Assembly (NCBI GenBank): GCA_964514585.1
Contig: CAZETU010000005.1
Coordinates: 10,904-74,903, forward strand
Direction: 5' to 3'
DNA: 64,000 bases
Source: Candidatus Woesearchaeota archaeon
GTDB lineage: Archaea > Nanobdellota > Nanobdellia > Pacearchaeales > GW2011-AR1
Shown: one piece after another, positions 763 through 62,552 of the stretch
How the letters are laid out: every line of letters starts with the position of its first letter
Position numbering within the stretch: the first letter of the stretch is position 1
Made by a program: the position numbers and the translations under genes
The notes under the pieces: model-generated
Database searches by the model: none
What the model saw: only the letters and a program-made list of their open reading frames with translations
What the model was told of the DNA's origin: nothing

Positions 763-801
763 AAAATTACAAACAAAGCCCCACTTAAAAATATTTCTAT
801 T

Positions 802-823: not shown

Positions 824-855
824 TCCCTTATAAGAAAGTAATAATGTAATAATAT

Positions 856-1035
856 ATGGAAAACAAAAAATCCAATAGGAAAGAATGGAGTAGATTAGAT
901 TCAATCTCCTTTAGGGGAGAAAGAGAAGTCTGGAATAAATTTCTTTCAGTCATAAAAAGAAAAGGAAAAAAGAACGCCTGGGAAGTATTGGGCAAACTTG
1001 TTCAAGAATATCTAAAGATAGGAGCCAAAGAATAA
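856..1035 (+). CDS. Small ribbon-helix-helix-like protein (59 aa, not in ORF track)
   Basis: Translated by hand: MENKKSNRKEWSRLDSISFRGEREVWNKFLSVIKRKGKKNAWEVLGKLVQEYLKIGAKE; TAA abuts ATG of symporter. Confidence 0.65.
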   Translation: MENKKSNRKEWSRLDSISFRGEREVWNKFLSVIKRKGKKNAWEVLGKLVQEYLKIGAKE

Positions 1036-2460: not shown

Positions 2461-2543
2461 AAAAGCAGCAGCGCAAGTTACGCAGGTTAAAGAGTAGACG
2501 CCCCAACCACAACGACTGGAGATGTGTGTCTTTGGTGGGCGGA

Positions 2544-3488
2544 TTATTTAGGGATAAACTTCATAAAGTCTTCAAGAGTAAATTTATCAAGTCTCATTAC
2601 AACTTCAGAGTTTCTTTTTATACCTTTTTTCATACTAGGAGTTTCTTTTGGATGACTCTTTAAGTGTTCTATATACCAAGACAATATTCCAAAAAGTCTG
2701 TATTTCGCTAGGTAATAAATTGCTTTTCTCTCTTCATTATTTAACGCGAAGTATTTTGAATATTCTTTTAGGAATATTTTAGCCTTCATTCTTTGAATTC
2801 TTTTTCTAGATAAGTAAAAATGTGCAATAAAGATTGCTGTATCATAGGCAATATAATCATAATCACTATCATCAAAATCTATTATGGATATTAGTTTCTT
2901 ATTTTTTACCAACATGTTACCTTCACTAAGGTCTGAATGAATATATGAACTTCTTAATTTACTAAAGTTTAGCCCATTTAAATTTTTCAAAAGTTCATTA
3001 TATATTCCTTGAATTTTTTCTCCATCCTTTATGCTCTTAAAACTTCTTTTTTTATAAGAATGAGATTTATTTCCTTTAGAATATTTAGATTTTACCAGAG
3101 TTGAATGTAACTTCCCTATTTGTTTTCCCATTTCAATTGAGAGAGGGATCCCCATATCTTGTGCACTTTTTCCTTCAATGTATCTTTGAATGATATAATA
3201 TTTCTTACGGTAAGGTATTAATTCATTTCCCTTCTTATTTTTGATATTTTTTGCTACGGGGATTTTCTTAGAGTATAAGAAGTCAATATATTCTAATTGG
3301 TTCAAATATGAATTTTTATTAATTTTTTTATTAATTTTTATTATATATTTACCTGTTGATGTATTTAGAATATACATATGATTATCATAAACTCCCTTCA
3401 TATATGAATGAGATTTATACCTCCCTATTTTATAATTAGAGAGAATATCTACTATCTCTTTTCTGTTTAATTTTGAAAAAATCACCAT
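2544..3488 (-). CDS. Phosphotransferase (APH / homoserine kinase type II-like)
   Basis: HSDLSEGN catalytic loop, IIDFDD metal-binding motif; AT-rich coding. Confidence 0.75.
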   Translation of the reverse strand: MVIFSKLNRKEIVDILSNYKIGRYKSHSYMKGVYDNHMYILNTSTGKYIIKINKKINKNSYLNQLEYIDFLYSKKIPVAKNIKNKKGNELIPYRKKYYIIQRYIEGKSAQDMGIPLSIEMGKQIGKLHSTLVKSKYSKGNKSHSYKKRSFKSIKDGEKIQGIYNELLKNLNGLNFSKLRSSYIHSDLSEGNMLVKNKKLISIIDFDDSDYDYIAYDTAIFIAHFYLSRKRIQRMKAKIFLKEYSKYFALNNEERKAIYYLAKYRLFGILSWYIEHLKSHPKETPSMKKGIKRNSEVVMRLDKFTLEDFMKFIPK

Positions 3489-3626
3489 TCAAATATTTAG
3501 GATTTAAGATATTTAAGATTATACATAAATGGAATATTCCAACCGTCGTTATTAAGCGTGTGTGATTTTGAAGGGTGGGCAGAATGGACAGTATCCAACC
3601 GATAATAACAAAAAATTAATTTCTAG

Positions 3627-4535
3627 TTATCCCCCAGTAGTATTAACAACCTCTCCACCAGAAACAACAAAAGTATTCTCTTCCTGACTAACCGGCGCCT
3701 TACTCTTCTCAATCAACATCGGATAATGATGAAGTATACCCTGCTTAACCAATATAGCCAAAACAAATTTCAATTTACTAAATCCCTCTTTCACCAACCA
3801 CCTCAAACAAAACGGCCGCGTCTTATACTTATCCTTAATAAATTTCAAAACTGCGCGAGCGTCCCTATCACGAACATTATCATCACTCTGCAAAACATAA
3901 ATCCCACCTTCCTTTCCCTCATAAATATCCCCATCCCCCGTCGTCACAAACGGCTCAATCGCAAAAGCCATATCATCCAATTTTGTCTTATTATCATTCC
4001 TATAATTAGAAATCGTCAACCCAGCATGAATCTGATCCTGTCCCAAAGTATGTCCCGACAAACTCTTAATCACAGCAAAAGAAGAACCATTCTTAGAATT
4101 CCATTTCTCCAAAACATCCTGAACAGCATCGCCAATCTCACAAATTTCAAACCCAGGTTTAATCACACCAGTAGCCCTAGCCAACATCTCCTTATTCAAT
4201 CCAATCATTTCCTTAAATTTCCCATCTCCAGTCAAGTCAATCGAAAAAGCCGTATCAGCAATAAACCCATCAACAGCAACCCCAACATCAACCTTAAGTA
4301 TACCCTCGGCCACAGTTTCATCCCCAGGCACAGGAGTATAATGCGCAGCAATTTCATTCAAACTCAAGTTCACAGGAAACGCCGGTTCACCTCCAAGCTC
4401 CAAAATCTTCGCGTCAACTGCCTCAGCCACATCAATCAACTTAACCCCAGGATTAACAATACCCCGAACAAAATCCTTGATATCTCTAGCAATTTTCCCA
4501 GCCTTAATATACGAATTAACTTCATTCTGTTGCAT
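3627..4535 (-). CDS. map: Methionine aminopeptidase, type II
   Basis: AFPVNLSLNEIAAHYTP, KVDVGVAVDGFIADTA, GH, AIEPFVT, EENT motifs. Confidence 0.93.
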   Translation of the reverse strand: MQQNEVNSYIKAGKIARDIKDFVRGIVNPGVKLIDVAEAVDAKILELGGEPAFPVNLSLNEIAAHYTPVPGDETVAEGILKVDVGVAVDGFIADTAFSIDLTGDGKFKEMIGLNKEMLARATGVIKPGFEICEIGDAVQDVLEKWNSKNGSSFAVIKSLSGHTLGQDQIHAGLTISNYRNDNKTKLDDMAFAIEPFVTTGDGDIYEGKEGGIYVLQSDDNVRDRDARAVLKFIKDKYKTRPFCLRWLVKEGFSKLKFVLAILVKQGILHHYPMLIEKSKAPVSQEENTFVVSGGEVVNTTGG

Positions 4536-39935: not shown

Positions 39936-41690
39936 ATGAACAGAAAAGAACTAATCAAGAAATATATTGAATTCTTCAAGTCGAAAGACCACGCCGAAAT
40001 TAAAAACTCAAGCCTAATCCCAGAAAACGATCCAACGGTTTTATTCACAACCGCAGGAATGCAACCATTAGTGCCAAATCTATTAGGCGAATCCCACCCT
40101 CAGGGGAAAAGATTAGCAAACGTCCAACGATGCATTAGAACCGTAGACATAGAAGAAGTAGGTGACACATGCCACCATACCCTTTTCGAAATGCTCGGAA
40201 ACTGGTCTCTAGGCGATTATTTCAAAAAAGAAGCAATCCAAATGACATTTGAATTTGTAACAAAAGTTCTAAAATTACCAATTGAAAGATTAGCAGTATC
40301 AGTTTTCAAAGGAAACGAGAATGCCCCAAAAGATGAAGAATCCGCAGAGGCTTGGAGGTCATCAGGGTTCCCTCAGGAAAGAATTGCATTTTTAGAAGCA
40401 AAAGAAAATTTCTGGGGGCCCGCAGGAGAAACAGGACCATGCGGACCAAATACCGAAATATTTTATTGGAAGCTAAATGATGTTCCAGCACCAAAAGAAT
40501 ATGATTACACCGACGAAAACTGGGTAGAAATCGGAAACGATGTCATTATGGAATACGAAAAAGACAAAAAAGGAAATTACAAACTTCTTAACCAAAAAAA
40601 TATTGACTTCGGCGGCGGCGTAGAAAGAACAGTCGCAATTCTTAACGGCCTCGAAGATAACTATCTAGCAGACATGTGGCAACCAGTAATAAAAGAAATA
40701 GAAAAAATCTCAAATAAAAAATATGAAGATAATAAAAAAGAAATGCGAATCATAGCAGACCACATCAAGGCAGCAACTTTCATAATCGCCGATGGGGCAG
40801 TCCCGGGCAATGCAGAACAAGGCTATGTCCTAAGAAGACTAATTAGAAGAGCAATCAGAAACCTAAGAAAAATAGACATCCCAATTTTAGAAATGGATGC
40901 AACAGTTGAAATCGCAAAAATAATAATCGACATCTACGACGATTACGAAATATTACAAAACAACAAAGAAAAAATATTATCAGAGCTAAAAGCCGAAGAA
41001 GACAAATTTCAAAAAACTCTCGACAAAGGATTAAGAGAATTCGAAAAAATGAGCTCAGACGACAAAATCGACGCAAAAGAATCATTCCTACTTTACCAAT
41101 CATACGGCTTCCCAATCGAAATGATAAAAGAGCTAGCAAAAGAAAAAGGAATCAAAGTCGACGAAAAAGGTTTCAACAAAGAATTCAACAAACACCAAGA
41201 ACTTTCACGTACAGCCTCAGCAGGAAAATTCAAATCCGGTCTAGCAGATAATTCCGACGCAACAAAAAAACTACACACAGCTTGCCACCTCCTTAACGAA
41301 GCCCTCAGGGTTGTTCTAAAAAACAAAGAGATTTTCCAGAAAGGTTCCAATATCACACCAGAAAGATTACGTTTCGATTTTAACTTCGATAGAAAATTAA
41401 CAGACGAAGAAAAACAGGCAATCGAAGATTTAGTAAATAAAAAAATTCAAGAAAACATACCAGTAGAATTACAAGAACTAACGTTAGACGAAGCAAAGCA
41501 ACAAGGAGCCCAAGGTGTATTCGACTCAAAATACGGAGACAAAGTAAAGGTCTACTCTGTTGGAGATTTTAGCAAAGAAATTTGCGCAGGCCCCCACGCC
41601 GAAAACACTTCAGAATTAGGAACCTTCAAAATCAAAAAAGAACAATCAAGCTCTTCGGGCGTTAGAAGAATCAAAGCAGTACTTGAATAA
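39936..41690 (+). CDS. alaS: Alanine--tRNA ligase, short form lacking C-Ala domain
   Basis: LFTTAGMQP, FEMLGNWSLGDYFK, GPCGPNTE, DFGGGVER, HTACHLL, EICAGPH, GVRRIKA terminus. Confidence 0.95.
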   Translation: MNRKELIKKYIEFFKSKDHAEIKNSSLIPENDPTVLFTTAGMQPLVPNLLGESHPQGKRLANVQRCIRTVDIEEVGDTCHHTLFEMLGNWSLGDYFKKEAIQMTFEFVTKVLKLPIERLAVSVFKGNENAPKDEESAEAWRSSGFPQERIAFLEAKENFWGPAGETGPCGPNTEIFYWKLNDVPAPKEYDYTDENWVEIGNDVIMEYEKDKKGNYKLLNQKNIDFGGGVERTVAILNGLEDNYLADMWQPVIKEIEKISNKKYEDNKKEMRIIADHIKAATFIIADGAVPGNAEQGYVLRRLIRRAIRNLRKIDIPILEMDATVEIAKIIIDIYDDYEILQNNKEKILSELKAEEDKFQKTLDKGLREFEKMSSDDKIDAKESFLLYQSYGFPIEMIKELAKEKGIKVDEKGFNKEFNKHQELSRTASAGKFKSGLADNSDATKKLHTACHLLNEALRVVLKNKEIFQKGSNITPERLRFDFNFDRKLTDEEKQAIEDLVNKKIQENIPVELQELTLDEAKQQGAQGVFDSKYGDKVKVYSVGDFSKEICAGPHAENTSELGTFKIKKEQSSSSGVRRIKAVLE

Positions 41691-44185: not shown

Positions 44186-47100
44186 TCACTCCAACCAAAC
44201 AGATGGCTTCCCCGGCTTAGCTTTCTTAGCCCGATTCTCCGGATCACGTTTCCCAGCATCATTAACCGCGTAAACCTCAACTTCCTTCCCAACACCTTTC
44301 GAAATCTTCTTCTCATCAATCTTCCCAATCTCAAACGGCATCACATAAATACAAACTTTCTCAACATCACCCTCAGTCTTATCCAAAATCCCCTTCACAT
44401 TCTCAATAACCTTTCCATTAAAATCTCCAGCCTCACCTTTTTTCAAAATCTTTTTCTCATCAACCTTAGGCCAACTCGACTTGGAAATAAAACCCTTATT
44501 CCCAATCTTCTCCCAAAGCTCCTCGGCAATATGCGGACAAATCGGACTAAGCAATTGCAAGAATTTTTCATAAGTTTCTTTTGAAACTATTTTTTCAGCT
44601 TCAATTAAACCAAATAAAGCTCGAATGAGAATAGTTGCCTTACGATATTCAAAATTGTCATAATAACCCGTGACCATTTTTACCACATTATTTATTCTAA
44701 TTTCCAATCCTTTTGAGTCTTTTCCAAAAGTTATCTTATCAGAAAATTCAAAAATTTTCTTCACAAATCTACTAGACCCATTAATCCCCTTCTCACTCCA
44801 ATCAATATTCTTATCAGGACTAGCCAAACTCGACAAGAAAAACCGCGCCGTATCAATCCCATACTTAGAAGAAACCTCCTCAGGCAAAACCCCATTCCCC
44901 TTAGACTTACTCATCTTCTCCCCGTCCTCACCATGCAACATTCCCTGATGAAACAACCGAACCGCCGGCTCATCAAAATCAATCAACCCAAGGTCCCTCA
45001 AAAACTTCACATAAAACCGCGAATAAATCAAATGCATACAAGCATGCTCAGCCCCGCCAACATAAGTATCAACCGGACACCAATACTTCACCTTCTTCGG
45101 ATCAAAAATAGCCTTATCATTCCCAGGATCACAATACCTCAAAAAATACCAAGAAGAATTAACAAAAGTATCCATAGTATCAGATTCTCGCCGACCTTTA
45201 CCCCCACACTTAGGGCATTTCACATTCAACCATTTCTCATTAGTCTCCAAGGGATTCCCATCCCCAAACTTAACATCCTTCGGTAATTCAATAGGCAAGT
45301 CTTTTTCAGCCACACCAACAACCCCACACTTCTCACAATAAATCACAGGAATCGGCGTCCCCCAATATCTCTGACGACTAACTCCCCAATCCCGAAGCTT
45401 AAAATTAACAACATCCCGACCAACCCCTTTCTTCTTCAACCACGAAGTAATCTTCTTCTTTGCCTCAACATTATCAACCCCATCAAACTCACCAGAATTA
45501 CAAAGCTTACCCCCGCCAACATAAGCCTCACTCTTTCCCAAATATTCCAACAGCCCAGCACAATTATCCTTATGTGTCATCTGTTCCAAAGCCTCATCAG
45601 CCCCAAGCCAAATCGCATCATGCCTATTCTTTTCTTTCTCTTCAACCTCCACAGGCTTCTCATCTATCAACTCCAACAAAACCGGCTGATCCACCCGAGC
45701 CCTCCAAACCTTTTTATTATCAGCATAAAAATAAGACTCAACCTTCTCTCCCAAAGTCCTAACAAATTTCGTCTTATAACCAGTCTCTTCCAAGGCCTCC
45801 CTAACGGCAGCATCTTCAACCGACTCACCCTCGTCAACTCCACCAACAACAGGCGCAATCCAACCAAACTCCTTCCACTTCACCAACAAAAACTTATCAT
45901 CACTCTTCCGATGCACAACAACAGAAATCGTATCCCTATAAACAGCATCCTTATGCGCCTCCCCATAAACAGGACGAACAACCTGCCTAACCTCAATCCC
46001 ATACTTCTTAGCAAACTCAAAATCCCGAGCATCATGCGCAGGAACAGCCATCACCATCCCAGCCCCATAATCCGCAACAACAAAATTCCCAGCCCAAACA
46101 GGAACTCGCCTACCATTAACAGGATTAACAGCATACGACCCAGTAAAAACCCCTTCCTTCTCTAAGTCACCAGCGTCCTTCTCGGAAACCGATTTCAACT
46201 TCTTCAAAAACTTATCAACTTCTTCCCTTTGCCCCTTGGTAACCAACGAATCCAAATTAGCATGCTGCGCAGAAACAACCATAAATGTAACCCCAAAAAT
46301 AGTATCAGGACGAGTCGTAAAAATCGGCCACTTATCCTTTTTGAAAAACTCTAAAACCTCCTCAAGCTTTTTGACTCCCTCACTATCACTCATATGCTTC
46401 TTGCCTTTCAGAATTTCAACATTTTCAAAATTCTCTTTAAAAAAATCAACAACCTCACCATTTATGTAAGGATCATCTGCTCCAAATATAAAATCAATTT
46501 TTCTAGCATTATTTTTAACCTTATCAACATCTAAACCATGAGACTGATATTTTTTAAAAATCTCCAGCTCCTCTTTCGGCAAAGAATTCTTGAACTGAGA
46601 AAAATATTTATCACTAGGATTAAACCCAACAGGTGAAACTAAAACTAATTTATCAACATTATATTTTTCAGCAAGCTTCAACGCAAGATGTCCACCCATA
46701 CTATGCCCAACAATGGAAAAATTCTTCAACCCATTTTTTTTAATCTTCTTTTCAGCAAAGTTCATCCATTCATCAAAATCAGGAGAATTAGTATCAGGAA
46801 AATCAAAATCAAAAACCTCCTTCCCATCATTTTCCAACTTATCTTTTAACCAAGGAATAAATCCAGATTTAGAAGTGTCTTCCCATCCATGCAAAATCAA
46901 AACTTGTTCCTTCACCCTATTGATTTCATTCAACAACTCAGGAAATTCATGAGTTCCCATAGAACCAAAAACAAAATGACCATGATTTTTCAAATCAATA
47001 ATTTTGCCCCCAATATCTTTTTCAAAAAGCTTAACACTCTTTTTCCCATCATCTTCTTCATTATCCGAAGTAAAAATAACAGCCTCATCAATATTTTCCT

Positions 47101-48202
47101 TAACACATTTATCAATTTTATAATCATAAAAATCTTTATCGCTACCATCTTCTCTATAAGGAATTTTCCAAGGAGCAACTAAAATCAATTTCTTTATCTT
47201 CTGTTTTGTGTCTCCAAGCCATCTACCCAAAAAAGCACAACCACAACTATGCCCAACTAAAATACTATTTTCATTAATATCTAATTTATCAAATTCTTTT
47301 TTCCATTTTTTATAATCTGGAGCCCAAGGTTCTGGCATTAATGGAGCATCAACTTTAATATTTTCTTTTTCTAAATTATCCTTAAGCCACAATCTCCAAT
47401 GTTTTTCATAAGACCTTTTCTCGGGGTCTCTTGGCTCATTACTATCTGGACACCCATGCACAATCACAACATTACTAATTTTACCCCCACCCTTTGATAT
47501 CTCAAAATCAATCTCAGTCCCATGCGACTTCCCAATCCAATTCCTCTGCATCGCCTTAGTCTTATCCGGCCAATCCATCTTGTCTAAATTCTCATACAAT
47601 TCATCAGCATACTCCGTCGTCTTCAAAAACCACTGTTTCAAATGCCTAACCTCAACTTCACAATCATCATGCCTCCAACACTTCCCCTCATGTACCTGCT
47701 CATTCGCCAAAACAGTATTACACTTACTACACCAATTAACCGCCGACGTCTTTTGATAAGCAAGCCCCTTCTCCAACATCTTCAAAAAAATCCACTGATC
47801 CCACTTATAATAACTAGGCTCATGCGTCGAAAAAGTCCTAGACCAATCATAAGAAAGCCCAATCTCCTTCATCTGCCTCATAAAATTAGGAATTGTCTTA
47901 TTTGTATAATCATCCGGATGTTCCCCAGCAAGGGTAGCCGCATTCTCCGCCGGCAACCCAAAAGAATCATACCCCATCGGGTATAAAACATTCATGCCAC
48001 TCATCCGTTTAAACCGCGCCATAATATCCCCAATCGTATAATTCCAAGCATGCCCCATATGAAGCCCCGAACCCGACGGATACGGAAACATCTCTAAAAC
48101 ATAATAAGGATTCTTGCCCTTCTCAGAAACCCCAAAAACCTTCTCGGCTTCCCATCTATCCTGCCACTTCTTCTCTAGTCCCGCAAAGTCAATTTCTACC
48201 AT
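44186..48202 (-). CDS. leuS: Leucine--tRNA ligase (bacterial-type core) with two inserted alpha/beta hydrolase domains and a Nudix domain
   Basis: EMFPYPSG..LHMGH, TTRPDT, WGVSRQRYWGTPIP, KMSKS; inserts ~46337-47497 and ~45535-45965. Confidence 0.95.
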   Translation of the reverse strand: MVEIDFAGLEKKWQDRWEAEKVFGVSEKGKNPYYVLEMFPYPSGSGLHMGHAWNYTIGDIMARFKRMSGMNVLYPMGYDSFGLPAENAATLAGEHPDDYTNKTIPNFMRQMKEIGLSYDWSRTFSTHEPSYYKWDQWIFLKMLEKGLAYQKTSAVNWCSKCNTVLANEQVHEGKCWRHDDCEVEVRHLKQWFLKTTEYADELYENLDKMDWPDKTKAMQRNWIGKSHGTEIDFEISKGGGKISNVVIVHGCPDSNEPRDPEKRSYEKHWRLWLKDNLEKENIKVDAPLMPEPWAPDYKKWKKEFDKLDINENSILVGHSCGCAFLGRWLGDTKQKIKKLILVAPWKIPYREDGSDKDFYDYKIDKCVKENIDEAVIFTSDNEEDDGKKSVKLFEKDIGGKIIDLKNHGHFVFGSMGTHEFPELLNEINRVKEQVLILHGWEDTSKSGFIPWLKDKLENDGKEVFDFDFPDTNSPDFDEWMNFAEKKIKKNGLKNFSIVGHSMGGHLALKLAEKYNVDKLVLVSPVGFNPSDKYFSQFKNSLPKEELEIFKKYQSHGLDVDKVKNNARKIDFIFGADDPYINGEVVDFFKENFENVEILKGKKHMSDSEGVKKLEEVLEFFKKDKWPIFTTRPDTIFGVTFMVVSAQHANLDSLVTKGQREEVDKFLKKLKSVSEKDAGDLEKEGVFTGSYAVNPVNGRRVPVWAGNFVVADYGAGMVMAVPAHDARDFEFAKKYGIEVRQVVRPVYGEAHKDAVYRDTISVVVHRKSDDKFLLVKWKEFGWIAPVVGGVDEGESVEDAAVREALEETGYKTKFVRTLGEKVESYFYADNKKVWRARVDQPVLLELIDEKPVEVEEKEKNRHDAIWLGADEALEQMTHKDNCAGLLEYLGKSEAYVGGGKLCNSGEFDGVDNVEAKKKITSWLKKKGVGRDVVNFKLRDWGVSRQRYWGTPIPVIYCEKCGVVGVAEKDLPIELPKDVKFGDGNPLETNEKWLNVKCPKCGGKGRRESDTMDTFVNSSWYFLRYCDPGNDKAIFDPKKVKYWCPVDTYVGGAEHACMHLIYSRFYVKFLRDLGLIDFDEPAVRLFHQGMLHGEDGEKMSKSKGNGVLPEEVSSKYGIDTARFFLSSLASPDKNIDWSEKGINGSSRFVKKIFEFSDKITFGKDSKGLEIRINNVVKMVTGYYDNFEYRKATILIRALFGLIEAEKIVSKETYEKFLQLLSPICPHIAEELWEKIGNKGFISKSSWPKVDEKKILKKGEAGDFNGKVIENVKGILDKTEGDVEKVCIYVMPFEIGKIDEKKISKGVGKEVEVYAVNDAGKRDPENRAKKAKPGKPSVWLE

Positions 48203-51696: not shown

Positions 51697-54234
51697 CTAT
51701 TCCTCTAACCTCTTCCTAAGCTTCCCAACCCTCTCACGAATCGCAATCGCCCTCTCAAACTCAAGGCACTCAGCCGCCTCTTTCATATCAGCCTCCAACT
51801 CAATAATCACATTCGCAACCTCAGCCCTAGGTATACTCTTTATGTCCTTAATCTCCACAACCTTCTCCTTAATCGGCTTAACAATCGTCTGCGGCACAAT
51901 CCCATTCTTCTCATTATACTTCTCCTGAATTTTCCGCCGCCTCTCAGTCTCACCTATTGCCCCCCGAATCGACCCCGTAATATTATCAGCATAAAGAACA
52001 ACCCGAGCGTCCCTATTCCTAGCCGCCCTTCCAATAATCTGAATCAAACTCCTCTCATCCCTAAGGAAACCCTCCTTATCAGCGTCAAGAACCCCAACAA
52101 ACCCAACCTCCGGAATATCAATCCCCTCCCTAAGCAAATTAATCCCAACCAAACAATCAAACTTCCCCAACCTCAACTCCCGAATAATCTCAGTCCTCTC
52201 AAACGTATCAATCTCCGAATGCAAATACCGACACTTAATCCCATTCTCACCAAGAAAATCAGTCAACTCCTCAGCCATCCTCTTAGTAAGCGTAGTAAGC
52301 AAAATCCGATTCCCATCCTTAACAGTCCTCCGAATCTCTCCCAAAACATCCTTAATCTGTCCTGGATAATTTTTACTATCAATAATTTCTTCCAAAACCT
52401 CAGGAACACCCGAAGCAACATTACTCCCAAAATGTTTTTTATTTTCATAAACCTTAAACTTAGCCCCCAATTTCTCAGCATTTTCCTCCCCTCTAAAAAA
52501 AGGTACAATAGAATCATCTCTCGAATGAATAACTACAAAATCTTTACAATGAGATTTTATTTTTTCAAAATCATAACCATCTTCTGTGTAAAATCCGTCA
52601 CCACTTCCAGTTCTCCCCTCCCTATCAGGATTTCCAGAATTCGTACTCACCAAAATAACCCGCTTAACCTTTTCCCCCTTAGGAAGTTTTTCCAACCACC
52701 TCAAAAGTGTGACACCTCCTCTAGAATGACCAACCAAAATACTGTTTTTATCAACCTTCATCTTATCAAGCTCATTGAACCATTCTTTCAAAACAGGCTC
52801 GCTCCCTTCGGGTAAAGTCGGAGCAAAAAAGTCAATTCCTTTATTCTCAATTTCTTTTCTCAGCCAAGGATACCACTTGTCATTCGGGAGAGCATTCTTG
52901 CCATGAAGAAGAATCACATTGCTAACTTCCTCTGTCTCACTAGAAGACGAAATCCCCCGAATCTCAACCTCAGGATCAATAAGCCCAGTCGGCCGAATAA
53001 TCTGCTCAACCACCCCCAAGCTATTCAGACCCTCATAATTCCCCGGCGTCGCCGAAACAAAAACAACCTTATTCTTTTTCATAACATCCTCAAACTCACC
53101 AAAATTAAGCGGCCGATTATCATAAGCAGAAGTCAACCTAAATCCATAATCAATCAAACTTTTCTTCCGAGCCCTGTCCCCATTATGCATCCCCCCAATC
53201 TGCGGAATCGTTCTATGCGACTCATCAATAATCATCAAAAAATCCTCAGGAAAATAATCAAGCAAACAAAACGCCCTCTCCCCCTCGGCCCGACCATCAA
53301 AATGCCGCGAATAATTCTCAATTCCCTTACAAGTCCCAGTCTCTTTAAGCATCTCCAAATCATAATTCGTCCTCTGATTCAACCGATGCTTAATCAACGG
53401 ATCACTAATATCCTTCAAATCAACCTTCAACTGATCCCGAATCTCCCCAGTCGCTCGATCAAAAACAGCCTCGGGCACAACATAATTCCGCGCCGGCCAA
53501 ACATAAAAATATTCCATCCTATCAATCACCTCCCCCGTATTCTTATCAACTTCAACAATTCGCTCAATCTCATCCCCAAAAAATTCAACCCGAATAATAT
53601 TATTCCCATAACCCGGAACAAAATCAACAACGTCCCCCTTAACTCGGAAACGCCCACTAGTCAAATCCATATCATTCCGCTCAAAAGTCATCCCAACAAG
53701 TTTCTCAATAAATCCCCGACGACCAATCTTCATTCCAACCTCCAAATCACATCCCATCATCTTATACATCTTAGGGTCCGACAAACCATAAATACAAGAA
53801 ACAGAAGCAACAACAATCACATCACTCCTAGACAAAAGCGCAGCAGTCGTCGCATGCCTCATCTGTTCAATCCTAGGATTAATCGCCGAGTCCTTCTCAA
53901 TATACTGATCCCTCGCCGGCAAATAACTCTCAGGCTGATAATAGTCATAATACGAAATAAAATACTCAACCCGATTCTCAGGAAAAAACTCCCTCATCTC
54001 CTCATAAAGCTGCGCCGCCAAAGTCTTATTATGCGCAATAATCAAAGTCGCCTTATTCGTCTTCGCAATCACATTCGCCATCGTAAAAGTCTTCCCAGAA
54101 CCAGTAACCCCAAGAAGCGTCTGCATACTTTTCCCCTCCTTAATCCCAGCAACCAGTTTATCAATAGCCTCAGGCTGATCCCCCTTAGGCTTAAACTTGC
54201 TAGCTAACTTAAATTTCTTATTTTCAATTTCCAT
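51697..54234 (-). CDS. uvrB: Excinuclease ABC subunit B with inserted alpha/beta hydrolase domain
   Basis: GVTGSGKT, YYDYYQPE, DESH, SATPG, GINLLREG, QIIGRAAR; insert ~52365-52955. Confidence 0.95.
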   Translation of the reverse strand: MEIENKKFKLASKFKPKGDQPEAIDKLVAGIKEGKSMQTLLGVTGSGKTFTMANVIAKTNKATLIIAHNKTLAAQLYEEMREFFPENRVEYFISYYDYYQPESYLPARDQYIEKDSAINPRIEQMRHATTAALLSRSDVIVVASVSCIYGLSDPKMYKMMGCDLEVGMKIGRRGFIEKLVGMTFERNDMDLTSGRFRVKGDVVDFVPGYGNNIIRVEFFGDEIERIVEVDKNTGEVIDRMEYFYVWPARNYVVPEAVFDRATGEIRDQLKVDLKDISDPLIKHRLNQRTNYDLEMLKETGTCKGIENYSRHFDGRAEGERAFCLLDYFPEDFLMIIDESHRTIPQIGGMHNGDRARKKSLIDYGFRLTSAYDNRPLNFGEFEDVMKKNKVVFVSATPGNYEGLNSLGVVEQIIRPTGLIDPEVEIRGISSSSETEEVSNVILLHGKNALPNDKWYPWLRKEIENKGIDFFAPTLPEGSEPVLKEWFNELDKMKVDKNSILVGHSRGGVTLLRWLEKLPKGEKVKRVILVSTNSGNPDREGRTGSGDGFYTEDGYDFEKIKSHCKDFVVIHSRDDSIVPFFRGEENAEKLGAKFKVYENKKHFGSNVASGVPEVLEEIIDSKNYPGQIKDVLGEIRRTVKDGNRILLTTLTKRMAEELTDFLGENGIKCRYLHSEIDTFERTEIIRELRLGKFDCLVGINLLREGIDIPEVGFVGVLDADKEGFLRDERSLIQIIGRAARNRDARVVLYADNITGSIRGAIGETERRRKIQEKYNEKNGIVPQTIVKPIKEKVVEIKDIKSIPRAEVANVIIELEADMKEAAECLEFERAIAIRERVGKLRKRLEE

Positions 54235-54311
54235 AAAACACCGACAATAAACGAGGTTATAAGATTTTTGTTTCCCCAAATACTTATATAATTCAACAAC
54301 GATAAAAATCC

Positions 54312-54992
54312 ATGGTGATGAGAATAGGACACAGGGGCGCCATGGGCTACGAACCCGAAAATACAATCAAGTCATTCAAAAAAGCCCTCAAACTAAACGT
54401 CGACATTATCGAACTAGATGTCCACGTCTGCAAATCAGGGGAATTAATAGTTATACACGACGAAAAAGTAAATAGAACAACAAACAGGAAAGGCCTCGTC
54501 TCAGAAAAAACATTATCAGAGCTAAAAAAACTAGACGCAGGCAAAGGCGAAAAAATCCCAACATTATCAGAAGTTCTAGATATCATCGACAGAAAAGCCA
54601 AAATCAACATCGAACTCAAAGGCCCAAAAACCGCAAAGCCCGTACACGAATTAATCAAAAATTTTACAAAAAATAAAGGATGGAATAATAGCGATTTTAT
54701 CGTATCATCTTTCTATCCAAAAGAGCTAATAAAATTCCATAAACTTAATCCCAAAATCAAAGCCGGGTTTTTAATACAAAGAAAGCCCAATCTCTATATG
54801 AAACTAATAAAAAAAGCAGGCGCAAGCTCCATGAATGTGTCGATGAAATTCGTAAACAAAGAACTCATAAAAGATGCCCACAATATCGGACTAAAGGTAT
54901 ACGTTTGGACAGTCAACAATCCCAAAGATATTGAAAGAATGAAAAAACTCGGCGTCGACGGCATTTTCTCAAATTTCCCAGACCGACTATAA
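54312..54992 (+). CDS. Glycerophosphodiester phosphodiesterase
   Basis: GHRGA, PENT, ELDVH, IHD, NIELK, WTVN, DGIFSNFP. Confidence 0.92.
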   Translation: MVMRIGHRGAMGYEPENTIKSFKKALKLNVDIIELDVHVCKSGELIVIHDEKVNRTTNRKGLVSEKTLSELKKLDAGKGEKIPTLSEVLDIIDRKAKINIELKGPKTAKPVHELIKNFTKNKGWNNSDFIVSSFYPKELIKFHKLNPKIKAGFLIQRKPNLYMKLIKKAGASSMNVSMKFVNKELIKDAHNIGLKVYVWTVNNPKDIERMKKLGVDGIFSNFPDRL

Positions 54993-54994
54993 CG

Positions 54995-56554
54995 CTACCC
55001 CAAAACCTTCTTCCGCCTCAACAGCCTATTATAATTTATCGCAAACCGATGCGCCTCATCCCGAATCTCCTGCAAATATTTCAAAGCAACACCTTTCTTA
55101 TCAAGTCTAATACTCAAAGCTCGCCCAGGAATAAAAACTTCCTCATCTCTCTTAGCAATCGAAATCACAGGAATTTTCAGCTCAAGCTCACTCAAAACTT
55201 CCATAACACAAGAAAGCTGCCCCTTTCCTCCATCAATCAAAATCAAATCAGGCATCTCAAGATTATCTCTCTTCAACTTGGTATACCGCCGCCTAACAAC
55301 CTCCTGCATACAAGCAAAATCATCATTCCCCTCAACGCTCCGAATCTTAAACCGCCGATAATTATTTTTATCCGCCTTCCCATCCCTAAACTGAACCATC
55401 GACCCAACAGTACTAGTCCCAGACAAATGCGAAATATCAAAGCACTCAATCACCGACGGACTTTCATTCAAATTCAATTTATTCTTTAACTGGACAACCT
55501 TCTCAGAGTCACCAAACAACTTAATCTCAATATTTTTCCGAGCCAAATCCAACAATTCTTTCTTCTCTCCCATCTTCGGAACAACAATCCGAGTCTTGCC
55601 CAACCTATTCAAAAATTCCTCCAAAGTCGAATCAATTTTCTCCGGAAAAATAATCTCCCCCGGAACAGGATAATCACTATAATACTGAATCAAAAATTCC
55701 TCCAAAAAATTATCTCTAAAATCAAACTCAAAATCCTGCTTATTCTCCATAATCCCTTTCTTAGAATTAAACAAAATCAGGTATACCTTACCCTCGTGAA
55801 TAATCCAATTAATTATATCCTCATCATAACTCTTATTCCTCTCCATCTTCTGCCTCTCTCTCAATTCCTTAACCGCCCTAATCTGATTCCTAATTTCAAG
55901 AGCCCTCTCAAAATCAAGATTCCTAGAAAAATCCTTCATCTTAAAATCCAAAGTCTTAACAAGACTCCCAGTCTTCCCTTTCAAAACAAGTTCAGCCGCC
56001 TTCACATTCTCCAAATAATCCTTCTCGCTAATTTTCCCAATACAAGGCCCCGAACAAAGTCCAATATCATACCTCATACATTTTCTCTTCGGCAACTTAT
56101 TGCAAGTCCTAATCTTAAAAATTTTCCTCAACACTCTCAAAACATAATCACGACTAAGTCCCGAAACAAACGGCCCAAAATATTTTCCATTCCCACCCCT
56201 CTTCCTAGCAATCAATAACCGAGGAAACTTCTCGCCAGTCACTTCGATAAACGCATACCTCTTCGAATCCTTCAAATCAATATTATACTTCGGCTTATAT
56301 CTCTTAATCAAATTATTCTCCAAAATCAAAGCCTCAACCTCACTATCAGTCACAAAAAATTCAACATCTTTAATCTTCGAAACCAAAACATTAGTCTTCA
56401 CTTCCTCATGCTCACGATTAAAATAACTCTTCACCCGCTTCGCTAAGTTTTTTGCCTTCCCGACATAAATAATCTTACCCTCAGAGTCCTTAAACAAATA
56501 ACAGCCAGGATTCTTCGGAACATTTTCCAAGCTTACCATAAAACTATTCAACAA
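54995..56554 (-). CDS. uvrC: Excinuclease ABC subunit C
   Basis: GIY-YIG (GCY...IIYVGKAKNL), IECFDISH, IDGGKGQ, RDEAHRFA; appears to lack C-terminal HhH. Confidence 0.95.
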   Translation of the reverse strand: MLNSFMVSLENVPKNPGCYLFKDSEGKIIYVGKAKNLAKRVKSYFNREHEEVKTNVLVSKIKDVEFFVTDSEVEALILENNLIKRYKPKYNIDLKDSKRYAFIEVTGEKFPRLLIARKRGGNGKYFGPFVSGLSRDYVLRVLRKIFKIRTCNKLPKRKCMRYDIGLCSGPCIGKISEKDYLENVKAAELVLKGKTGSLVKTLDFKMKDFSRNLDFERALEIRNQIRAVKELRERQKMERNKSYDEDIINWIIHEGKVYLILFNSKKGIMENKQDFEFDFRDNFLEEFLIQYYSDYPVPGEIIFPEKIDSTLEEFLNRLGKTRIVVPKMGEKKELLDLARKNIEIKLFGDSEKVVQLKNKLNLNESPSVIECFDISHLSGTSTVGSMVQFRDGKADKNNYRRFKIRSVEGNDDFACMQEVVRRRYTKLKRDNLEMPDLILIDGGKGQLSCVMEVLSELELKIPVISIAKRDEEVFIPGRALSIRLDKKGVALKYLQEIRDEAHRFAINYNRLLRRKKVLG

Positions 56555-59747: not shown

Positions 59748-62552
59748 TCATCCCCTTTCCAAAATTTCCTTCAAATATTTCCCAGTCCAACTCTTATCAT
59801 TCTTAATAATTTCTTCAGGAGATCCAGTCGCAATAACTTCCCCACCACCTTCCCCACCCTCAGGTCCAAGATCAATAATATAATCAGCGCTCTTAATCAC
59901 ATCCAAATTATGCTCAATAATAACCACCGTATTCCCCTTAGCAACAAGCCCATCAATAACCTTCAACAATTTTCTAACATCGTGAAAATGCAATCCCGTC
60001 GTCGGTTCATCCAAAATATAAAGCGTCTTCCCCGTTCCCTTCTTAGCCAACTCACGAGTCAACTTAATCCTCTGCGACTCTCCTCCAGACAAAGTAGTCG
60101 AACTCTGTCCCAACTTAATATAACCAAGCCCAACCTTATTCAACGTATCCAACTTCCTCCTCACCGACGGCACATTCTCAAACAAAACCAAAGACTCCTC
60201 AACGCTCATGTCAAGAATATCAGCAATACTCTTTCCCTTATACAAAATCTGCAACGTTTCCTTATTGTACCGCTTCCCCTTGCAGTCCTCACATTCAACA
60301 TGCACATCTGGCAAAAAATTCATCTCAATCTTAATCGTCCCATCGCCCTGACACTTCTCACATCGTCCCCCAAAAACATTAAACGAAAATCTTCCAGGCC
60401 CATACCCTCGAATCTTAGACTCCCTCGTGCTCGCAAAAAAACTCCTAATCTCATCAAAAACTTTAATGTATGTCGCAGGATTACTTCGCGGCGTTTTCCC
60501 AATCGGCGACTGATCAATAACAATAACCTTGTCAATCTTCTCATCTAACTTTATACTCTTATGTTTCCCAGGACGAATCTTCGAATCCTTATTTAATTTC
60601 TTCTCCATCCCCTTATACAAAATCTCATTCATCAAAGTCGACTTCCCAGACCCCGAAACTCCAGTAATACAATTCAGTATACCAATCGGAATATCAACAT
60701 CAATGTCCTTCAAATTATTTTCACCACACCCACTCATTTGAATATACTTATTACTTTGCCGTCGACGATTAGGCGTCTCAATTTTCATCTCACCAGAAAG
60801 ATACTGCCCCGTCAAAGAATTCTTATTTTTCTCAATTTCCGCAGGTATACCTTTCGCTACAATTTCCCCACCATGAATCCCAGCACCAGGCCCCATATCA
60901 ACAACATAATCAGCAGCCCGAATCGTATCCTCGTCATGCTCAACAACAATTAAACTATTTCCCAAATCCCGGAGCTTATGCAAAGTATCAATCAACTTTT
61001 TATTATCTCGCTGATGTAGTCCTATAGAAGGTTCATCTAAAATATACATAACCCCCATTAAATTGGCCCCAATCTGCGTCGCTAAACGAATTCTCTGAGC
61101 CTCCCCACCAGACAAAGTTCCAGCCTTCCTCGACAAATTCAAATAACCAAGCCCGACATTTTGCAAAAACCCAAGCCGGTCCCCAATTTCCTTCAATATC
61201 AACTTCGCAATCTCAAGTCGCTTATCATCCAGCTTTAAATTCTTAAAAAAATCAACACACTTTTCAATAGACATCTCAGTAACTTCAGCAATCGAAGCCC
61301 CACCAACGGTAACTGCCAACATCTTACTCTTCAGTCGTTTGCCCTTACAAACAGGACAAATCTTACTTCTCTGAAATTTCTCCAACATCCGTCGACGATA
61401 ATCACTATCCGTCTTCTTATACAGCCTCTCACTTTGCGGAATCAAACCCTCCCATCCATTTTCCATTCTCATCTGCGCACCGTTAGACCACTTCCCATAA
61501 ATCGGCTCCTCCGAACCATAAAACAAAATCGTCAATTGCTCAGTAGAAAAACCATCAACAGGACTAAGAACATCAAATCCAAATTTCTTCCCAACGGCCG
61601 CCATCTGCTGAATCCTCCAAGAGCTATCCATCTTCCCATAAAGCCTAATCGCCCCGTCCACTATGGGCACAGACCTATCAGGAATAATCAAATCAGGATC
61701 AAACTCAGTCTTAACCCCAAGTCCATGACATTCCTCACAAGCCCCAAAAGGACTATTAAAAGAAAACATCCTAGGCTGCAACTCCTCAAAACCAATCCCA
61801 CATTTCGGACAAGACATCAGCGTAGAGTAAACATATTTCTTATTCTTAGAATCCAAAATCTCAATCAACCCATCCTCAGATTTCTTCGTCGCATTCTCAA
61901 CCGACTCCCTCAACCTCGAAACATCATCAACAGAAACCCTATCAATCACAATTTCAATATCATGCTTCTTATATCGAGCCAACTTAACCTTCTCATCAGT
62001 CCGATAAATCTCACCATCAACTCGAACCCGAGCAAATCCATCCTTATTCAAATCATAAAGCAACTGCTCATAAGTCCCTTTCTTATGCCTGACAATTGGA
62101 GCAAGCACAGTAATGGTTCCACTCACATCAGAAGCAATTTTATCCGCAACTTTCTCAGGAGTCTGCGCCTCAATCGTTGTCCCATGCTCAGGACAATGAG
62201 GTATACCAACCCTCGCAAAAAGCAATCTTAAATAATCATAAATCTCAGTAACAGTCCCAACAGTGCTTCGCGGATTCTTGCTCGTAGTCTTTTGCTCAAT
62301 AGAAATCGCAGGACTCAGTCCCTCAATTGTATCAACATCAGGCTTATTCATCAACCCCAAAAACTGCCGCGCATAAGAAGACAAAGATTCAACATAACGT
62401 CGCTGCCCCTCAGCATAAAGCGTATCAAAAGCCAAGGTCGATTTCCCCGACCCAGACAACCCAGTCACAACTACAAATTTCTCCCTCGGCAAATCAATGC
62501 TAATGTTCTTGAGGTTATGCTCTCTCGCGCCCTTAATTCGTATGTCTTTCAT
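59748..62552 (-). CDS. uvrA: Excinuclease ABC subunit A
   Basis: Two Walker A ([16 protein letters not shown]), LSGGE signatures, Zn fingers. Confidence 0.97.

What the first reader, a model, noticed from the sequence alone, without database searches (positions are those of the whole stretch)
46337..47497. Two tandem RBBP9/YdeN-like serine hydrolase domains inserted in frame in the LeuRS editing region
Seen: between IDFEI and WPIFTTRPDT, ~387 aa are inserted and form two complete alpha/beta hydrolases. Both keep apparent triads (GHSCG/SDNE/HGHF and GHSMG/ADDP/KKHM), run from first strand to last helix, and look AT-richer than the flanking leuS DNA. Known: RBBP9/YdeN are stand-alone hydrolases, and these junctions lack intein signatures (no N-terminal C/S with C-terminal HN-C/S/T). 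Inference: a domain that repeatedly colonises essential genes as an unspliced passenger, or gives LeuRS an extra deacylase/esterase activity.
Basis: partly seen in the sequence, partly recalled or inferred. Interest (0 to 1): 0.8.

Follow-up and report, generated by a model that had tools for sequence, protein, structure and literature searches.

The report
Swappable hydrolase domains nested inside LeuRS
The only leucyl-tRNA synthetase of this tiny salt-lake archaeon carries two complete RBBP9/YdeN-type serine hydrolases in frame in a surface hairpin; such small-hydrolase modules are gained, lost and exchanged between essential genes even among species of one genus, and I found no paper describing this.

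Summary
leuS (44186-48202, minus strand, 1338 aa) is a bacterial-type LeuRS. A 387-aa insert (aa 236-622) replaces a 3-residue hairpin turn just before the TTRPDT editing motif. It consists of two PF06821 (RBBP9/YdeN) alpha/beta-hydrolase domains, hydA and hydB, both with the Ser nucleophile and His base. hydB has the canonical Asp; hydA has Asn there, with an Asp beside it.

This is not a misassembly, because contigs from other samples bridge every junction. It is not an intein, and hydB is not a duplicate of hydA. hydB is about 30% identical to hydA but 57-62% identical to copies at another LeuRS site in distant lineages.

The same family sits in UvrB 5 kb away. Elsewhere it occurs in SRP54/FtsY, PheRS-beta, GatB, Fmt and GT2, and at three or more LeuRS slots. 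Nudix, HAD and Ham1 domains use the same slots.

Among 25 congeneric LeuRS genes, the slot is empty in 11, and occupancy is scattered on the core tree. Near-identical cores carry hydrolases only 50-55% identical.

Best reading: unspliced, probably active accessory modules drawn from an exchangeable cassette pool. Their substrate and their mode of transfer are unknown. This scan has noted the same phenomenon before in other CPR and DPANN genomes.

The parts
44186..48202 (-). leuS, 1338 aa, bacterial-type leucyl-tRNA synthetase. It is the only LeuRS found in this 90%-complete genome.
   Evidence: ORF and translation. TIGR00396 857 bits against cut-off 548. HMGH and KMSKS motifs are present. No archaeal-type LeuRS scores above cut-off in the genome.
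47498..48202 (-). LeuRS N-terminal catalytic core, aa 1-235, ending ...NWIGKSHGTEIDFEI.
   Evidence: Aligns to T. thermophilus LeuRS residues 8-236. GC 0.44, GC3 0.50.
46919..47497 (-). hydA, aa 236-428: linker SKGGGKI plus an RBBP9/YdeN-type serine hydrolase. Ser319 lies in GHSCG and His409 in HGHF. The canonical acid position is Asn381, with Asp380 beside it.
   Evidence: PF06821 53.3 bits. Model pLDDT is above 90 over the domain, with best PDB matches 1UXO and 2QS9. It is 80% identical to the insert of its nearest LeuRS relative, P0004, whose core is 81-83% identical. Acid motif analysis.
46337..46918 (-). hydB, aa 429-622: a second serine hydrolase of a different subtype. Ser501 lies in GHSMG, Asp577 in ADDP and His603 in KKHM. 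It sits in the C-terminal linker of hydA.
   Evidence: PF06821 43.2 bits. Model pLDDT 95, pTM 0.92, best matches 1UXO and 2QS9. It is 29-32% identical to hydA, 62% to G003 hydB, and 57-62% to slot-3 copies in LeuRS whose cores are 48-50% identical. It is absent from P0004-P0007, which have hydA only.
45947..46336 (-). First part of the CP1 editing domain, aa 623-752, with the TTRPDT and AVPAHD editing motifs.
   Evidence: PF13603 181.7 bits. Aligns to Tt LeuRS 240-363.
45533..45946 (-). NUDIX domain nested at a second LeuRS slot, aa 753-890.
   Evidence: PF00293 52.3 bits. It replaces Tt 364-374. Its GC equals that of the host gene. The slot is filled in 7 of 25 congeners and needs at least 7 changes on the core tree.
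44186..45532 (-). LeuRS C-terminal catalytic half, anticodon-binding domain and C-terminal domain, aa 891-1338.
   Evidence: Aligns to Tt LeuRS 375-815. PF08264 59.8 bits.
51697..54366 (-). uvrB. The likely true start is the ATG at 54234.
   Evidence: Pfam UvrB_inter, UvrB, Helicase_C and UVR. 763 bits to the solved UvrB 9gy7_E. uvrC and uvrA follow at 54995-56554 and 59748-62552.
52369..52953 (-). Third PF06821 hydrolase domain of the genome, nested in UvrB exactly between residues 426 and 427 of solved UvrB. Motifs GHSRG, SRDD, KKHF.
   Evidence: PF06821 54-59 bits. Insertion point. It is 37% identical to hydA. It lies in a 100%-supported (SH-aLRT, the branch-support value of the tree) clade of six, with copies from LeuRS, Fmt, PheRS-beta and a Ham1 fusion.

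Best explanation
The 387-aa insert is two complete, independently acquired RBBP9/YdeN-family serine hydrolase domains. They are nested in frame in the turn of a surface beta-hairpin, about ten residues before the T-rich editing motif of an otherwise intact bacterial-type LeuRS.

Inferred: they are translated and kept in the mature enzyme as extra globular modules on flexible linkers, without splicing. Inferred: they are catalytically competent. Because the family's solved member RBBP9 removes aminoacyl groups that carry a free alpha-amine, I take an amino-acid ester or amide as the most likely substrate class. Their activity need not depend on LeuRS.

Shown by comparison: the modules belong to a pool of small 'house-cleaning-type' hydrolases (PF06821, Nudix, HAD, Ham1). 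In DPANN archaea and CPR bacteria these exist both as free genes and nested in a few permissive loops of essential proteins. They are gained, lost and replaced on the time scale of species within a genus.

Inferred: exchange happens mostly by recombination through the conserved host flanks or the conserved domain ends, with rare illegitimate in-frame insertions creating new slots.
For: Anatomy.
- Insertion point and intact LeuRS motifs.
- Both halves are PF06821 with YdeN/RBBP9 folds.

Constraint.
- Across 148 inserted copies, the nucleophile Ser is kept in 146, the His in 146 and the oxyanion His in 147.
- In the vertical pair G000/P0004, hydA is 80% identical against 81-83% for the N core and CP1.
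- This is the only LeuRS in the genome.

Real DNA. Logan contigs (independent public assemblies of the runs) from samples not flagged as the source bridge all three junctions with no differences. Other contigs break exactly at 46330 and at 47485-47502; one of them (read at the 46330 break) runs on as an empty-slot LeuRS hairpin.

Recurrence.
- More than 100 LeuRS clusters carry the domain, at slot 1 (235/622), slot 2 (744/891) and slot 3 (959/960).
- Other hosts are UvrB, SRP54/FtsY, PheRS-beta, GT2, Fmt and GatB, with end-to-end fusions to ribosomal protein L22, adenylate kinase, Nudix and Ham1.

Turnover.
- In 25 LeuRS of one GTDB genus, slot 1 is empty in 11. It holds 9-20 aa in 4, one hydrolase in 5, a HAD domain in 2, an unknown segment plus a hydrolase in 1, and two hydrolases in 2.
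- On the core tree, hydrolase presence needs at least 6 changes and Nudix at least 7.

Cassette replacement.
- G043 and G024 share 95% of the N core but only 50% of the hydrolase. G001 and G003 share 89% and 98% of the flanks but 55% of the hydrolase.
- The nearest relatives of G003 hydA are a free 193-aa protein (62%) and a UvrB insert (59%).
- hydB lies in a 100%-supported clade with slot-3 LeuRS and SRP/FtsY copies.

Substrate class. RBBP9 is a serine aminopeptidase that needs a free alpha-amine (PMC8866121).
Against: - No protein, RNA or activity data exist. That the inserts stay in the mature protein and are active is inferred only.
- hydA lacks the canonical Asp: Asn381 aligns with RBBP9 Asp138. 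Two of 148 inserted copies have lost the Ser.
- No DNA-level trace of a transfer mechanism was found at these borders. There are no terminal repeats or target duplications.
- The domain is short, so deep branches of its tree are weak. Only 21 of 98 inner branches are strongly supported in the IQ-TREE run.
- Metagenome-assembled genomes can be chimeric across strains. That could inflate the apparent mosaicism.
- Thirteen of the 24 congeners searched with the PF06821 model have no PF06821 at all. Whatever the module does is dispensable.
Confidence: 0.75

Rival explanations
1. Cis-acting quality control. The tethered hydrolases work on LeuRS-bound substrates. They would act as an additional deacylase for mischarged tRNA-Leu, or as a hydrolase of non-cognate aminoacyl-adenylate or ester by-products, and the neighbouring Nudix would clear nucleotide by-products.
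For: - The insertion point is about ten residues before the TTRPDT editing motif.
- Many hosts handle aminoacyl-tRNA: LeuRS, another class I synthetase, PheRS-beta, GatB and Fmt.
- RBBP9 hydrolyses aminoacyl groups with a free alpha-amine.
- PF06821 is fused with Nudix, Ham1 and adenylate kinase outside LeuRS. That suggests a nucleotide-linked substrate.
- No Pth, Pth2 or DTD2 is recognisable in the genome.
Against: - The same domain sits in UvrB, SRP54/FtsY, GT2 and ribosomal protein L22 fusions.
- It occupies three distant LeuRS slots.
- The CP1 editing motifs are intact.
- Eleven of 25 congeners have an empty slot.
- All 31 genus genomes lack Pth and Pth2 whether or not they hold PF06821, so there is no complementarity.
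Confidence: 0.15
2. Selfish or neutral passenger. The modules persist because a gene nested in an essential gene is sheltered from the strong deletion bias of these reduced genomes. Their enzymatic function is irrelevant to the host protein and perhaps to the cell.
For: - Distribution is patchy within the genus.
- There are many unrelated hosts and slots.
- In this genome all three PF06821 copies are nested and none is free.
- GC3 is lower than in the host gene in all ten congeners examined (marginally in G004).
- Short remnants in some slots look like deletion scars. For example, G042 keeps the start of the linker seen in its sister G023.
Against: - Catalytic Ser and His are kept in 146 of 148 inserted copies.
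- Substitution rates are core-like in vertical pairs.
- No mobility genes, terminal repeats or target duplications were found.
- Free copies are common in related families of the same order.
Confidence: 0.25
3. Self-excising element. The hydrolase removes itself, intein-like, or cuts the host chain at its linkers, so that the mature LeuRS lacks it or is a two-piece enzyme.
For: - Its distribution resembles that of inteins: in-frame inserts in conserved essential genes, polymorphic among relatives.
- The family includes a serine peptidase, RBBP9.
- A natural two-subunit LeuRS exists in the PDB hits: chains named 'Leucyl-tRNA synthetase subunit alpha', 3o0a.
Against: - No Hint or intein family was found in the Pfam scan.
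- There is no C-terminal His-Asn, and +1 is Trp.
- The linkers differ in length and sequence between relatives.
- RBBP9 removes only single N-terminal residues.
Confidence: 0.03
4. Assembly or binning artefact that joins a hydrolase gene into leuS.
For: The insert differs in composition from its flanks.
Against: - Contigs from four runs, two of them not flagged as possible sources, cover or bridge all junctions without differences.
- The same architecture occurs in more than 100 independent assemblies, and in G003.
Confidence: 0.01

Closest known systems
RBBP9 (human) and YdeN (B. subtilis) serine hydrolases, Pfam PF06821; PDB 2QS9, 7OEX, 9FCR, 1UXO
   Same: A lid-less alpha/beta-hydrolase fold of about 190 aa, with an HG oxyanion motif, a GHSxG nucleophile elbow and a C-terminal catalytic His. 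They are the best sequence and fold matches for both halves.
   Different: The known members are free-standing proteins. Here two copies are nested inside another enzyme. hydA has Asn at the position of the catalytic Asp. Sequence identity to the solved members is only 20-21%. The substrate is unknown.
Bacterial LeuRS with its CP1 editing domain (T. thermophilus 1H3N/2BYT, E. coli 4AQ7), itself a classic nested domain
   Same: The same core, HIGH and KMSKS motifs and CP1 editing motifs. The architecture is domain-within-domain (PMC13114784).
   Different: CP1 is universal and functionally coupled to aminoacylation. The hydrolase, Nudix and HAD modules are optional, interchangeable and shared with unrelated host proteins.
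Inteins
   Same: In-frame inserts in conserved sites of essential genes, with a patchy presence among close relatives and a phylogeny that does not follow the host gene.
   Different: No Hint fold, no splicing residues and no homing endonuclease. The insert encodes a normal metabolic-type enzyme and is probably retained in the mature protein.
Rickettsia palindromic elements (selfish repeats inserted in frame and kept in proteins; from my own knowledge, Ogata et al. 2000, not checked here)
   Same: Foreign DNA tolerated in frame in surface loops of housekeeping proteins of reduced genomes.
   Different: Those elements are short (100-150 bp), repetitive and encode no enzyme. Here whole enzyme domains of about 190 aa are inserted, without repeat borders in this genome.
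Synthetases with an appended accessory enzyme domain, e.g. IleRS with a GNAT domain (NCBIfam NF040702, listed)
   Same: An aminoacyl-tRNA synthetase permanently joined to an unrelated small enzyme.
   Different: I did not examine whether that domain is terminal or fixed in its lineage. Here the modules are internal, multiple, polymorphic within a genus and shared with DNA-repair and secretion proteins.

Membership tests
PF06821 Ser_hydrolase (RBBP9/YdeN) | Sequence match above Pfam's gathering score (22 bits) | tested here: met
   hydA 53.3 bits, hydB 43.2 bits, UvrB insert 58.7 bits.
PF06821 Ser_hydrolase (RBBP9/YdeN) | Compact lid-less alpha/beta-hydrolase fold like 1UXO and 2QS9 | tested here: met
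   The hydA model has pLDDT above 90 over the domain. The hydB model has pLDDT 95.2. The top Foldseek hits for both are 1UXO, 2QS9, 7OEX and 9FCR, at TM 0.78-0.87 normalised to the target and rmsd 2.4-2.8.
PF06821 Ser_hydrolase (RBBP9/YdeN) | Nucleophile Ser in G-x-S-x-G, and catalytic His after the last strand | tested here: met
   hydA has Ser319 and His409. hydB has Ser501 and His603. These columns are invariant in the alignment of the three window copies. They are kept in 146 of 148 inserted copies.
PF06821 Ser_hydrolase (RBBP9/YdeN) | Catalytic Asp at the position of RBBP9 Asp138 | tested here: inconclusive
   hydB (ADDP) and the UvrB copy (RDDS) have Asp there. hydA has Asn381, with Asp380 before it and Glu382-383 after. 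Its clade varies between SDNEE, SNDEE, SDDEE and SNNEE.
PF06821 Ser_hydrolase (RBBP9/YdeN) | Hydrolytic activity (ester or aminoacyl-amide) | not testable with these tools
   Needs an enzyme assay or activity-based probes.
Bacterial-type LeuRS (TIGR00396) | Full-length match above the curated cut-off, with HIGH, KMSKS and CP1 editing motifs | tested here: met
   857 bits against 548.4. HMGH, KMSKS, TTRPDT and AVPAHD are all present. 689 bits to 1H3N.
Inteins / Hint-domain splicing elements | Hint fold; N-terminal Cys/Ser/Thr, C-terminal His-Asn and a +1 Cys/Ser/Thr | tested here: not met
   No Hint or intein family in the Pfam scan. The insert ends ...KKDK and +1 is Trp. Junction linkers vary among relatives.
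Transposable or repeat elements (IS, MITE, RPE-like) | Terminal inverted or direct repeats, target-site duplication, multiple near-identical copies | tested here: not met
   No border repeats. The three copies in the genome are only 29-37% identical. The 10-nt-period triple repeat seen at this slot in congeners is not found in the assembled part of this genome (about 90% complete).
Known aminoacyl-tRNA or peptidyl-tRNA hydrolases (Pth, Pth2, DTD2) | Sequence membership in PF01195, PF01981 or PF04414 | tested here: not met
   The insert matches none of these families. The families are also not found elsewhere in the genome.

The most novel reading that the evidence does not exclude
PF06821, Nudix, HAD and Ham1 domains in DPANN archaea and CPR bacteria form a previously unrecognised class of in-frame 'domain cassettes'. 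They would move between a small set of permissive loops in essential proteins, and between the free and the nested state. The route would be dedicated or strongly favoured, for example recombination through conserved domain ends, or the short 10-nt-period repeats seen at the same slot in congeners. No splicing and no endonuclease of their own would be involved. Nesting would act as a refuge from gene loss in streamlined genomes.
Probability: 0.3. Interest if true: 0.9.

Novelty: new variant of a known kind. Interest (0 to 1): 0.72.

Why it matters
Aminoacyl-tRNA synthetases and UvrB are among the most conserved proteins known. Here they act as scaffolds into which whole small enzymes are plugged, unplugged and exchanged between species of one genus, and across the archaeal and bacterial ultra-small lineages.

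If the modules are active, they are a new way of organising accessory metabolism in minimal genomes. They are also a candidate link between house-cleaning hydrolases and translation quality control.

If they move as cassettes, they are a new form of gene mobility at the level of protein domains. That would give a natural map of permissive insertion sites in LeuRS, UvrB, SRP54/FtsY, GatB and PheRS, which is useful for protein engineering.

There is also a practical warning for annotation pipelines and marker-gene phylogenies. They treat these genes as single orthologues, while parts of them have different histories.

Tried and rejected
- Misassembly: rejected. Contigs from four runs cover or bridge all junctions.
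- Expression: no RNA holder listed. Nothing can be said about expression.
- Intein or other splicing element: no Hint family, and the junction residues do not fit.
- hydB as a tandem duplicate of hydA: rejected. They are 29-32% identical, against 57-62% between hydB and slot-3 copies elsewhere. hydB falls in a 100%-supported clade with slot-3 and SRP/FtsY copies.
- Border repeats or target duplications around the insert: none convincing. One 19-nt match (47471-47489 and 46994-47012) encodes GGKI in a linker and in a conserved strand, and I judge it chance.
It is not in this genome or window.
- AT-richness as a mark of recent import: not supported. hydA predates the split from the P0004 lineage. 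The slot-1 inserts of all ten congeners examined show the same direction of offset (small in G004). Several ordinary genes in the window are equally AT-rich.
- Complementarity with missing Pth, Pth2 or DTD2: none. The whole genus lacks recognisable Pth and Pth2, whatever its PF06821 content.
- Free PF06821 genes next to leuS: not seen in this genus. The free copies lie on other contigs than leuS.
- First structure job: it gave low confidence for hydB because the alignment held few B-type sequences. I repeated it with a B-type alignment.
- Literature: seven full-text searches found no description of hydrolase domains nested in LeuRS, or of this cassette behaviour. The domain-insertion survey PMC13114784 does not mention it.
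- Equivalence of an acidic loop residue with RBBP9 Glu108, the alpha-amine anchor: the alignment in that loop is ambiguous. I make no claim.

Full report
**What is in the window**

The minus-strand ORF 44186-48202 encodes a 1338-aa protein. It is a bacterial-type leucyl-tRNA synthetase, scoring 857 bits against TIGR00396 with a cut-off of 548. The HMGH and KMSKS motifs are present, as are the CP1 editing motifs TTRPDT and AVPAHD.

I aligned it to the solved T. thermophilus enzyme 1H3N.
- aa 8-235 pair with Tt 8-236.
- aa 622-743 pair with Tt 240-363.
- aa 892-1089 pair with Tt 375-577.

Two blocks are therefore extra.
- aa 236-622 (window 46337-47497) replace a three-residue hairpin turn, about ten residues before the T-rich editing motif.
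- aa 753-890 (45533-45946) replace Tt 364-374 and form a NUDIX domain (PF00293, 52 bits).

No archaeal-type LeuRS scores above cut-off elsewhere in this 90%-complete, 1.04-Mb genome. This gene must therefore supply LeuRS activity.

The neighbourhood holds DUF1003, a patatin-like lipase, uvrB, uvrC, uvrA, a short AlaRS and a family-B DNA polymerase. The closest homologues carry the names Nanoarchaeota and Pacearchaeota.

**The two hydrolases**

Both halves of the first block match Pfam PF06821 (Ser_hydrolase, the RBBP9/YdeN family) above threshold. hydA (aa 236-428) scores 53 bits and hydB (aa 429-622) scores 43 bits.
- The AlphaFold model of the whole block is confident for hydA, with pLDDT above 90.
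- With an alignment of B-type relatives, hydB reaches pLDDT 95 and pTM 0.92.
- Both models match B. subtilis YdeN (1UXO) and human RBBP9 (2QS9, 7OEX, 9FCR) best, at TM 0.78-0.87 normalised to the target.
- The HG oxyanion motif, the GHSxG nucleophile elbow and the C-terminal His are invariant in the three copies in the window.
- Across 148 nested copies from public data, the Ser is kept in 146 and the His in 146.

The acid residue is less simple. The family motif is S-x-[DN]-D, and RBBP9 Asp138 aligns with the last position. hydB (ADDP) and the UvrB copy (RDDS) have that Asp. hydA has Asn381, flanked by Asp380 and Glu382.

**Artefact and splicing**

Logan contigs (independent public assemblies) from four salt-lake runs were laid on the region. 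Two of the runs are not flagged as possible sources of this DNA. The contigs cover or bridge the upstream, middle and downstream junctions with no differences.

Contigs of other strains match the leuS core and break off exactly at 46330 and at 47485-47502. One of them, read at the 46330 break, continues into an empty-slot hairpin sequence.

No Hint or intein family is detected. The insert ends ...KKDK before Trp. The linkers at both ends differ in length and sequence among relatives. There are no terminal repeats or target duplications. No RNA run holds the sequence, so retention in the mature protein remains an inference.

**Composition**

The insert has GC 0.32 and GC3 0.22-0.28. The flanks have GC 0.44-0.45 and GC3 0.40-0.50. 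This does not mark a recent import, for three reasons.
- The nearest LeuRS relative, P0004, has an orthologous hydA that is 80% identical, while its core is 81-83% identical. hydA is therefore old and as constrained as the core.
- The slot-1 inserts of all ten congeners examined show lower GC3 than their flanks; the gap is small in G004, whose flanks are also AT-rich.
- Ordinary genes in the window span GC3 0.18-0.59.

**Recurrence**

The genome holds three PF06821 copies, and all three are nested. The third sits in UvrB (window 52369-52953), exactly between residues 426 and 427 of solved UvrB.

A region-restricted search found more than 100 LeuRS clusters with the domain. They come from DPANN archaea (Nano-, Pace-, Woese- and Aenigmarchaeota) and from CPR bacteria (Paceibacterota, Portnoybacteria). 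The same search found it in SRP54/FtsY-type proteins, PheRS-beta and UvrB.

A profile search of 1.8 billion representatives found many free proteins of about 190 aa and further hosts. These include GT2 glycosyltransferase, Fmt and another class I synthetase. There are also fusions with Ham1, ribosomal protein L22, adenylate kinase and Nudix, the last in both orders. A congener carries the domain in GatB.

I mapped flanks onto this LeuRS. The domain occupies at least three slots: 235/622, 744/891 (the Nudix slot here) and 959/960. The same slots hold Nudix, Ham1, HAD and a DUF559 domain in other genomes.

**Turnover within one genus**

I recovered 25 LeuRS genes from species of the same GTDB genus. 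They range from 804 to 1338 aa. Slot 1 holds:
- the bare two-residue turn in 11,
- 9-20 aa in 4,
- one hydrolase in 5,
- a HAD domain in 2,
- an unknown segment plus a hydrolase in 1,
- two hydrolases in this genome and in G003.

The Nudix slot is filled in 7.

On a tree of the insert-free core, hydrolase presence needs at least 6 changes and Nudix at least 7. Neither is more clustered than shuffled labels.

Pairs with nearly identical flanks carry very different hydrolases.
- G043 and G024: N core 95% identical, CP1 87%, hydrolase 50%.
- G001 and G003: N core 89%, CP1 98%, hydrolase 55%.
- The hydrolase of G001 is closer (62%) to those of LeuRS with 68-70% core identity.
- The hydrolase of G003 is closest to a free protein (62%) and to a UvrB insert (59%).

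**Origin of the tandem**

hydB is not a duplicate of hydA.
- They share 29-32% identity.
- hydB is 62% identical to the second domain of G003.
- hydB is 57-62% identical to slot-3 copies in LeuRS whose cores are only 48-50% identical.
- In an IQ-TREE analysis of 101 domains, hydB lies in a 100%-supported clade of 19, made of slot-3 LeuRS and SRP/FtsY copies.
- In the same tree the UvrB copy lies in a 100%-supported clade of six, with copies from LeuRS, Fmt, PheRS-beta and a Ham1 fusion.
- The free-or-nested state changes at least 7 times and the host at least 15 times. A 261-sequence FastTree agrees.

The closest relatives with hydA (P0004 to P0007) lack hydB entirely. In them hydA ends ...PELL-EI-linker-W. 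In this genome hydB sits inside that linker.

Second domains in other double-insert LeuRS are polyphyletic: 8 rows need 6 changes. The linker after a resident module therefore seems to be a favoured landing place.

**How it most likely works**

Shown:
- the anatomy,
- family membership,
- conservation of the nucleophile and base,
- reality of the DNA,
- recurrence, polymorphism and incongruent histories.

Inferred:
- The modules stay in the mature LeuRS as extra globular domains on flexible linkers.
- They are active.
- By analogy with RBBP9, they act on amino-acid esters or amides. RBBP9 is a serine aminopeptidase that needs a free alpha-amine on its substrate (PMC8866121).

A role in cis on LeuRS substrates is attractive. 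The site is close to the editing pocket, and many hosts handle aminoacyl-tRNA. Three findings speak against it.
- UvrB, SRP/FtsY and GT2 are also hosts.
- Three distant LeuRS slots are used.
- Many congeners have empty slots.

The absence of recognisable Pth, Pth2 and DTD2 does not track the domain.

The repeated fusion with Nudix, Ham1, HAD and adenylate kinase hints at a nucleotide-linked substrate. This is guilt by association only.

How the cassettes move is unknown. Replacement at a fixed slot can be explained by homologous recombination through the conserved host flanks or the conserved domain ends. New slots need rare illegitimate in-frame events.

**Comparison with what is known, and novelty**

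Nested domains are a known kind of architecture, and CP1 itself is one. Synthetases with extra enzyme domains exist, for example IleRS with a GNAT domain (NCBIfam NF040702). Inteins show a similar population behaviour.

What differs here is the combination:
- whole ordinary enzymes,
- nested without splicing motifs,
- interchangeable among several passenger families and several essential hosts,
- polymorphic within a genus,
- shared between archaeal and bacterial ultra-small lineages.

Seven full-text searches and one relevant survey gave no description of this. Earlier notes of this scan report the same phenomenon in other CPR and DPANN genomes. I re-derived the main points here independently on this genus.

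**Verdict**

The 'extra deacylase' reading stays open and is less likely. I class the finding as a new variant of a known kind and rate its interest as high.

Noticed in passing
L014 (G042), L025 (G023), L022 (G015), L010 (G019): LeuRS slot 1 of congeners: Short tandem DNA repeats with a 10-nt period sit at the same LeuRS hairpin slot. G042 has CACGGATGAA x2.7 in a 20-aa remnant. Its sister G023 has the same element at the N-border of a HAD insert. G015 has CACAGAT x3 at the N-border of its HAD insert, plus one copy at the C-border. G019 has GGAGAGG x3. They are not in this genome or window. They might mark a grafting mechanism or a deletion scar.
   Followed up: partly
window 45533-45946 (-): A NUDIX domain is nested at a second LeuRS slot, with GC like the host gene. 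Nudix inserts of congeners are only 23-42% identical while the flanking cores are 60-83% identical. The slot is filled in 7 of 25 congeners, which needs at least 7 changes on the core tree.
   Followed up: partly
whole genome G000: There are sixteen NUDIX matches in a 1.04-Mb genome, fifteen of them in small ORFs of their own (130-296 aa). That is an unusually large house-cleaning repertoire for so small a genome.
   Followed up: no
G000 and 30 genomes of the same genus: No peptidyl-tRNA hydrolase of either type (PF01195, PF01981) was found above cut-off in any of the 31 genomes. No DTD2 (PF04414) was found in the window's own genome. Either these activities are missing or they are carried by unrecognised proteins.
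   Followed up: partly
L031 (G003:C5) 433-2412 (+): GatB of a congener carries an insert of about 230 aa with an alpha/beta-hydrolase between GatB_N and the GatB_Yqey domain. It is 42% identical to hydA.
   Followed up: partly
L025 (G023) 376-3714 (+); L028 (G001) 336-2546 (+): G023 LeuRS has a further 141-aa insert at slot 3 with no Pfam match. G001 LeuRS has an extra segment of about 120 aa of unknown family in front of its hydrolase in slot 1.
   Followed up: no
window 44186-48202 compared with congeners: The LeuRS core itself looks mosaic between congeners. For G043 against G024, the N core is 95% identical, CP1 87% and the C-terminal core 81%. This suggests recombination within leuS, or chimeric bins.
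   Followed up: no
window 39936-41690 (+): The AlaRS ORF is only 584 aa. It has the catalytic domain and the tRNA_SAD domain but ends there, which is short compared with typical AlaRS.
   Followed up: no
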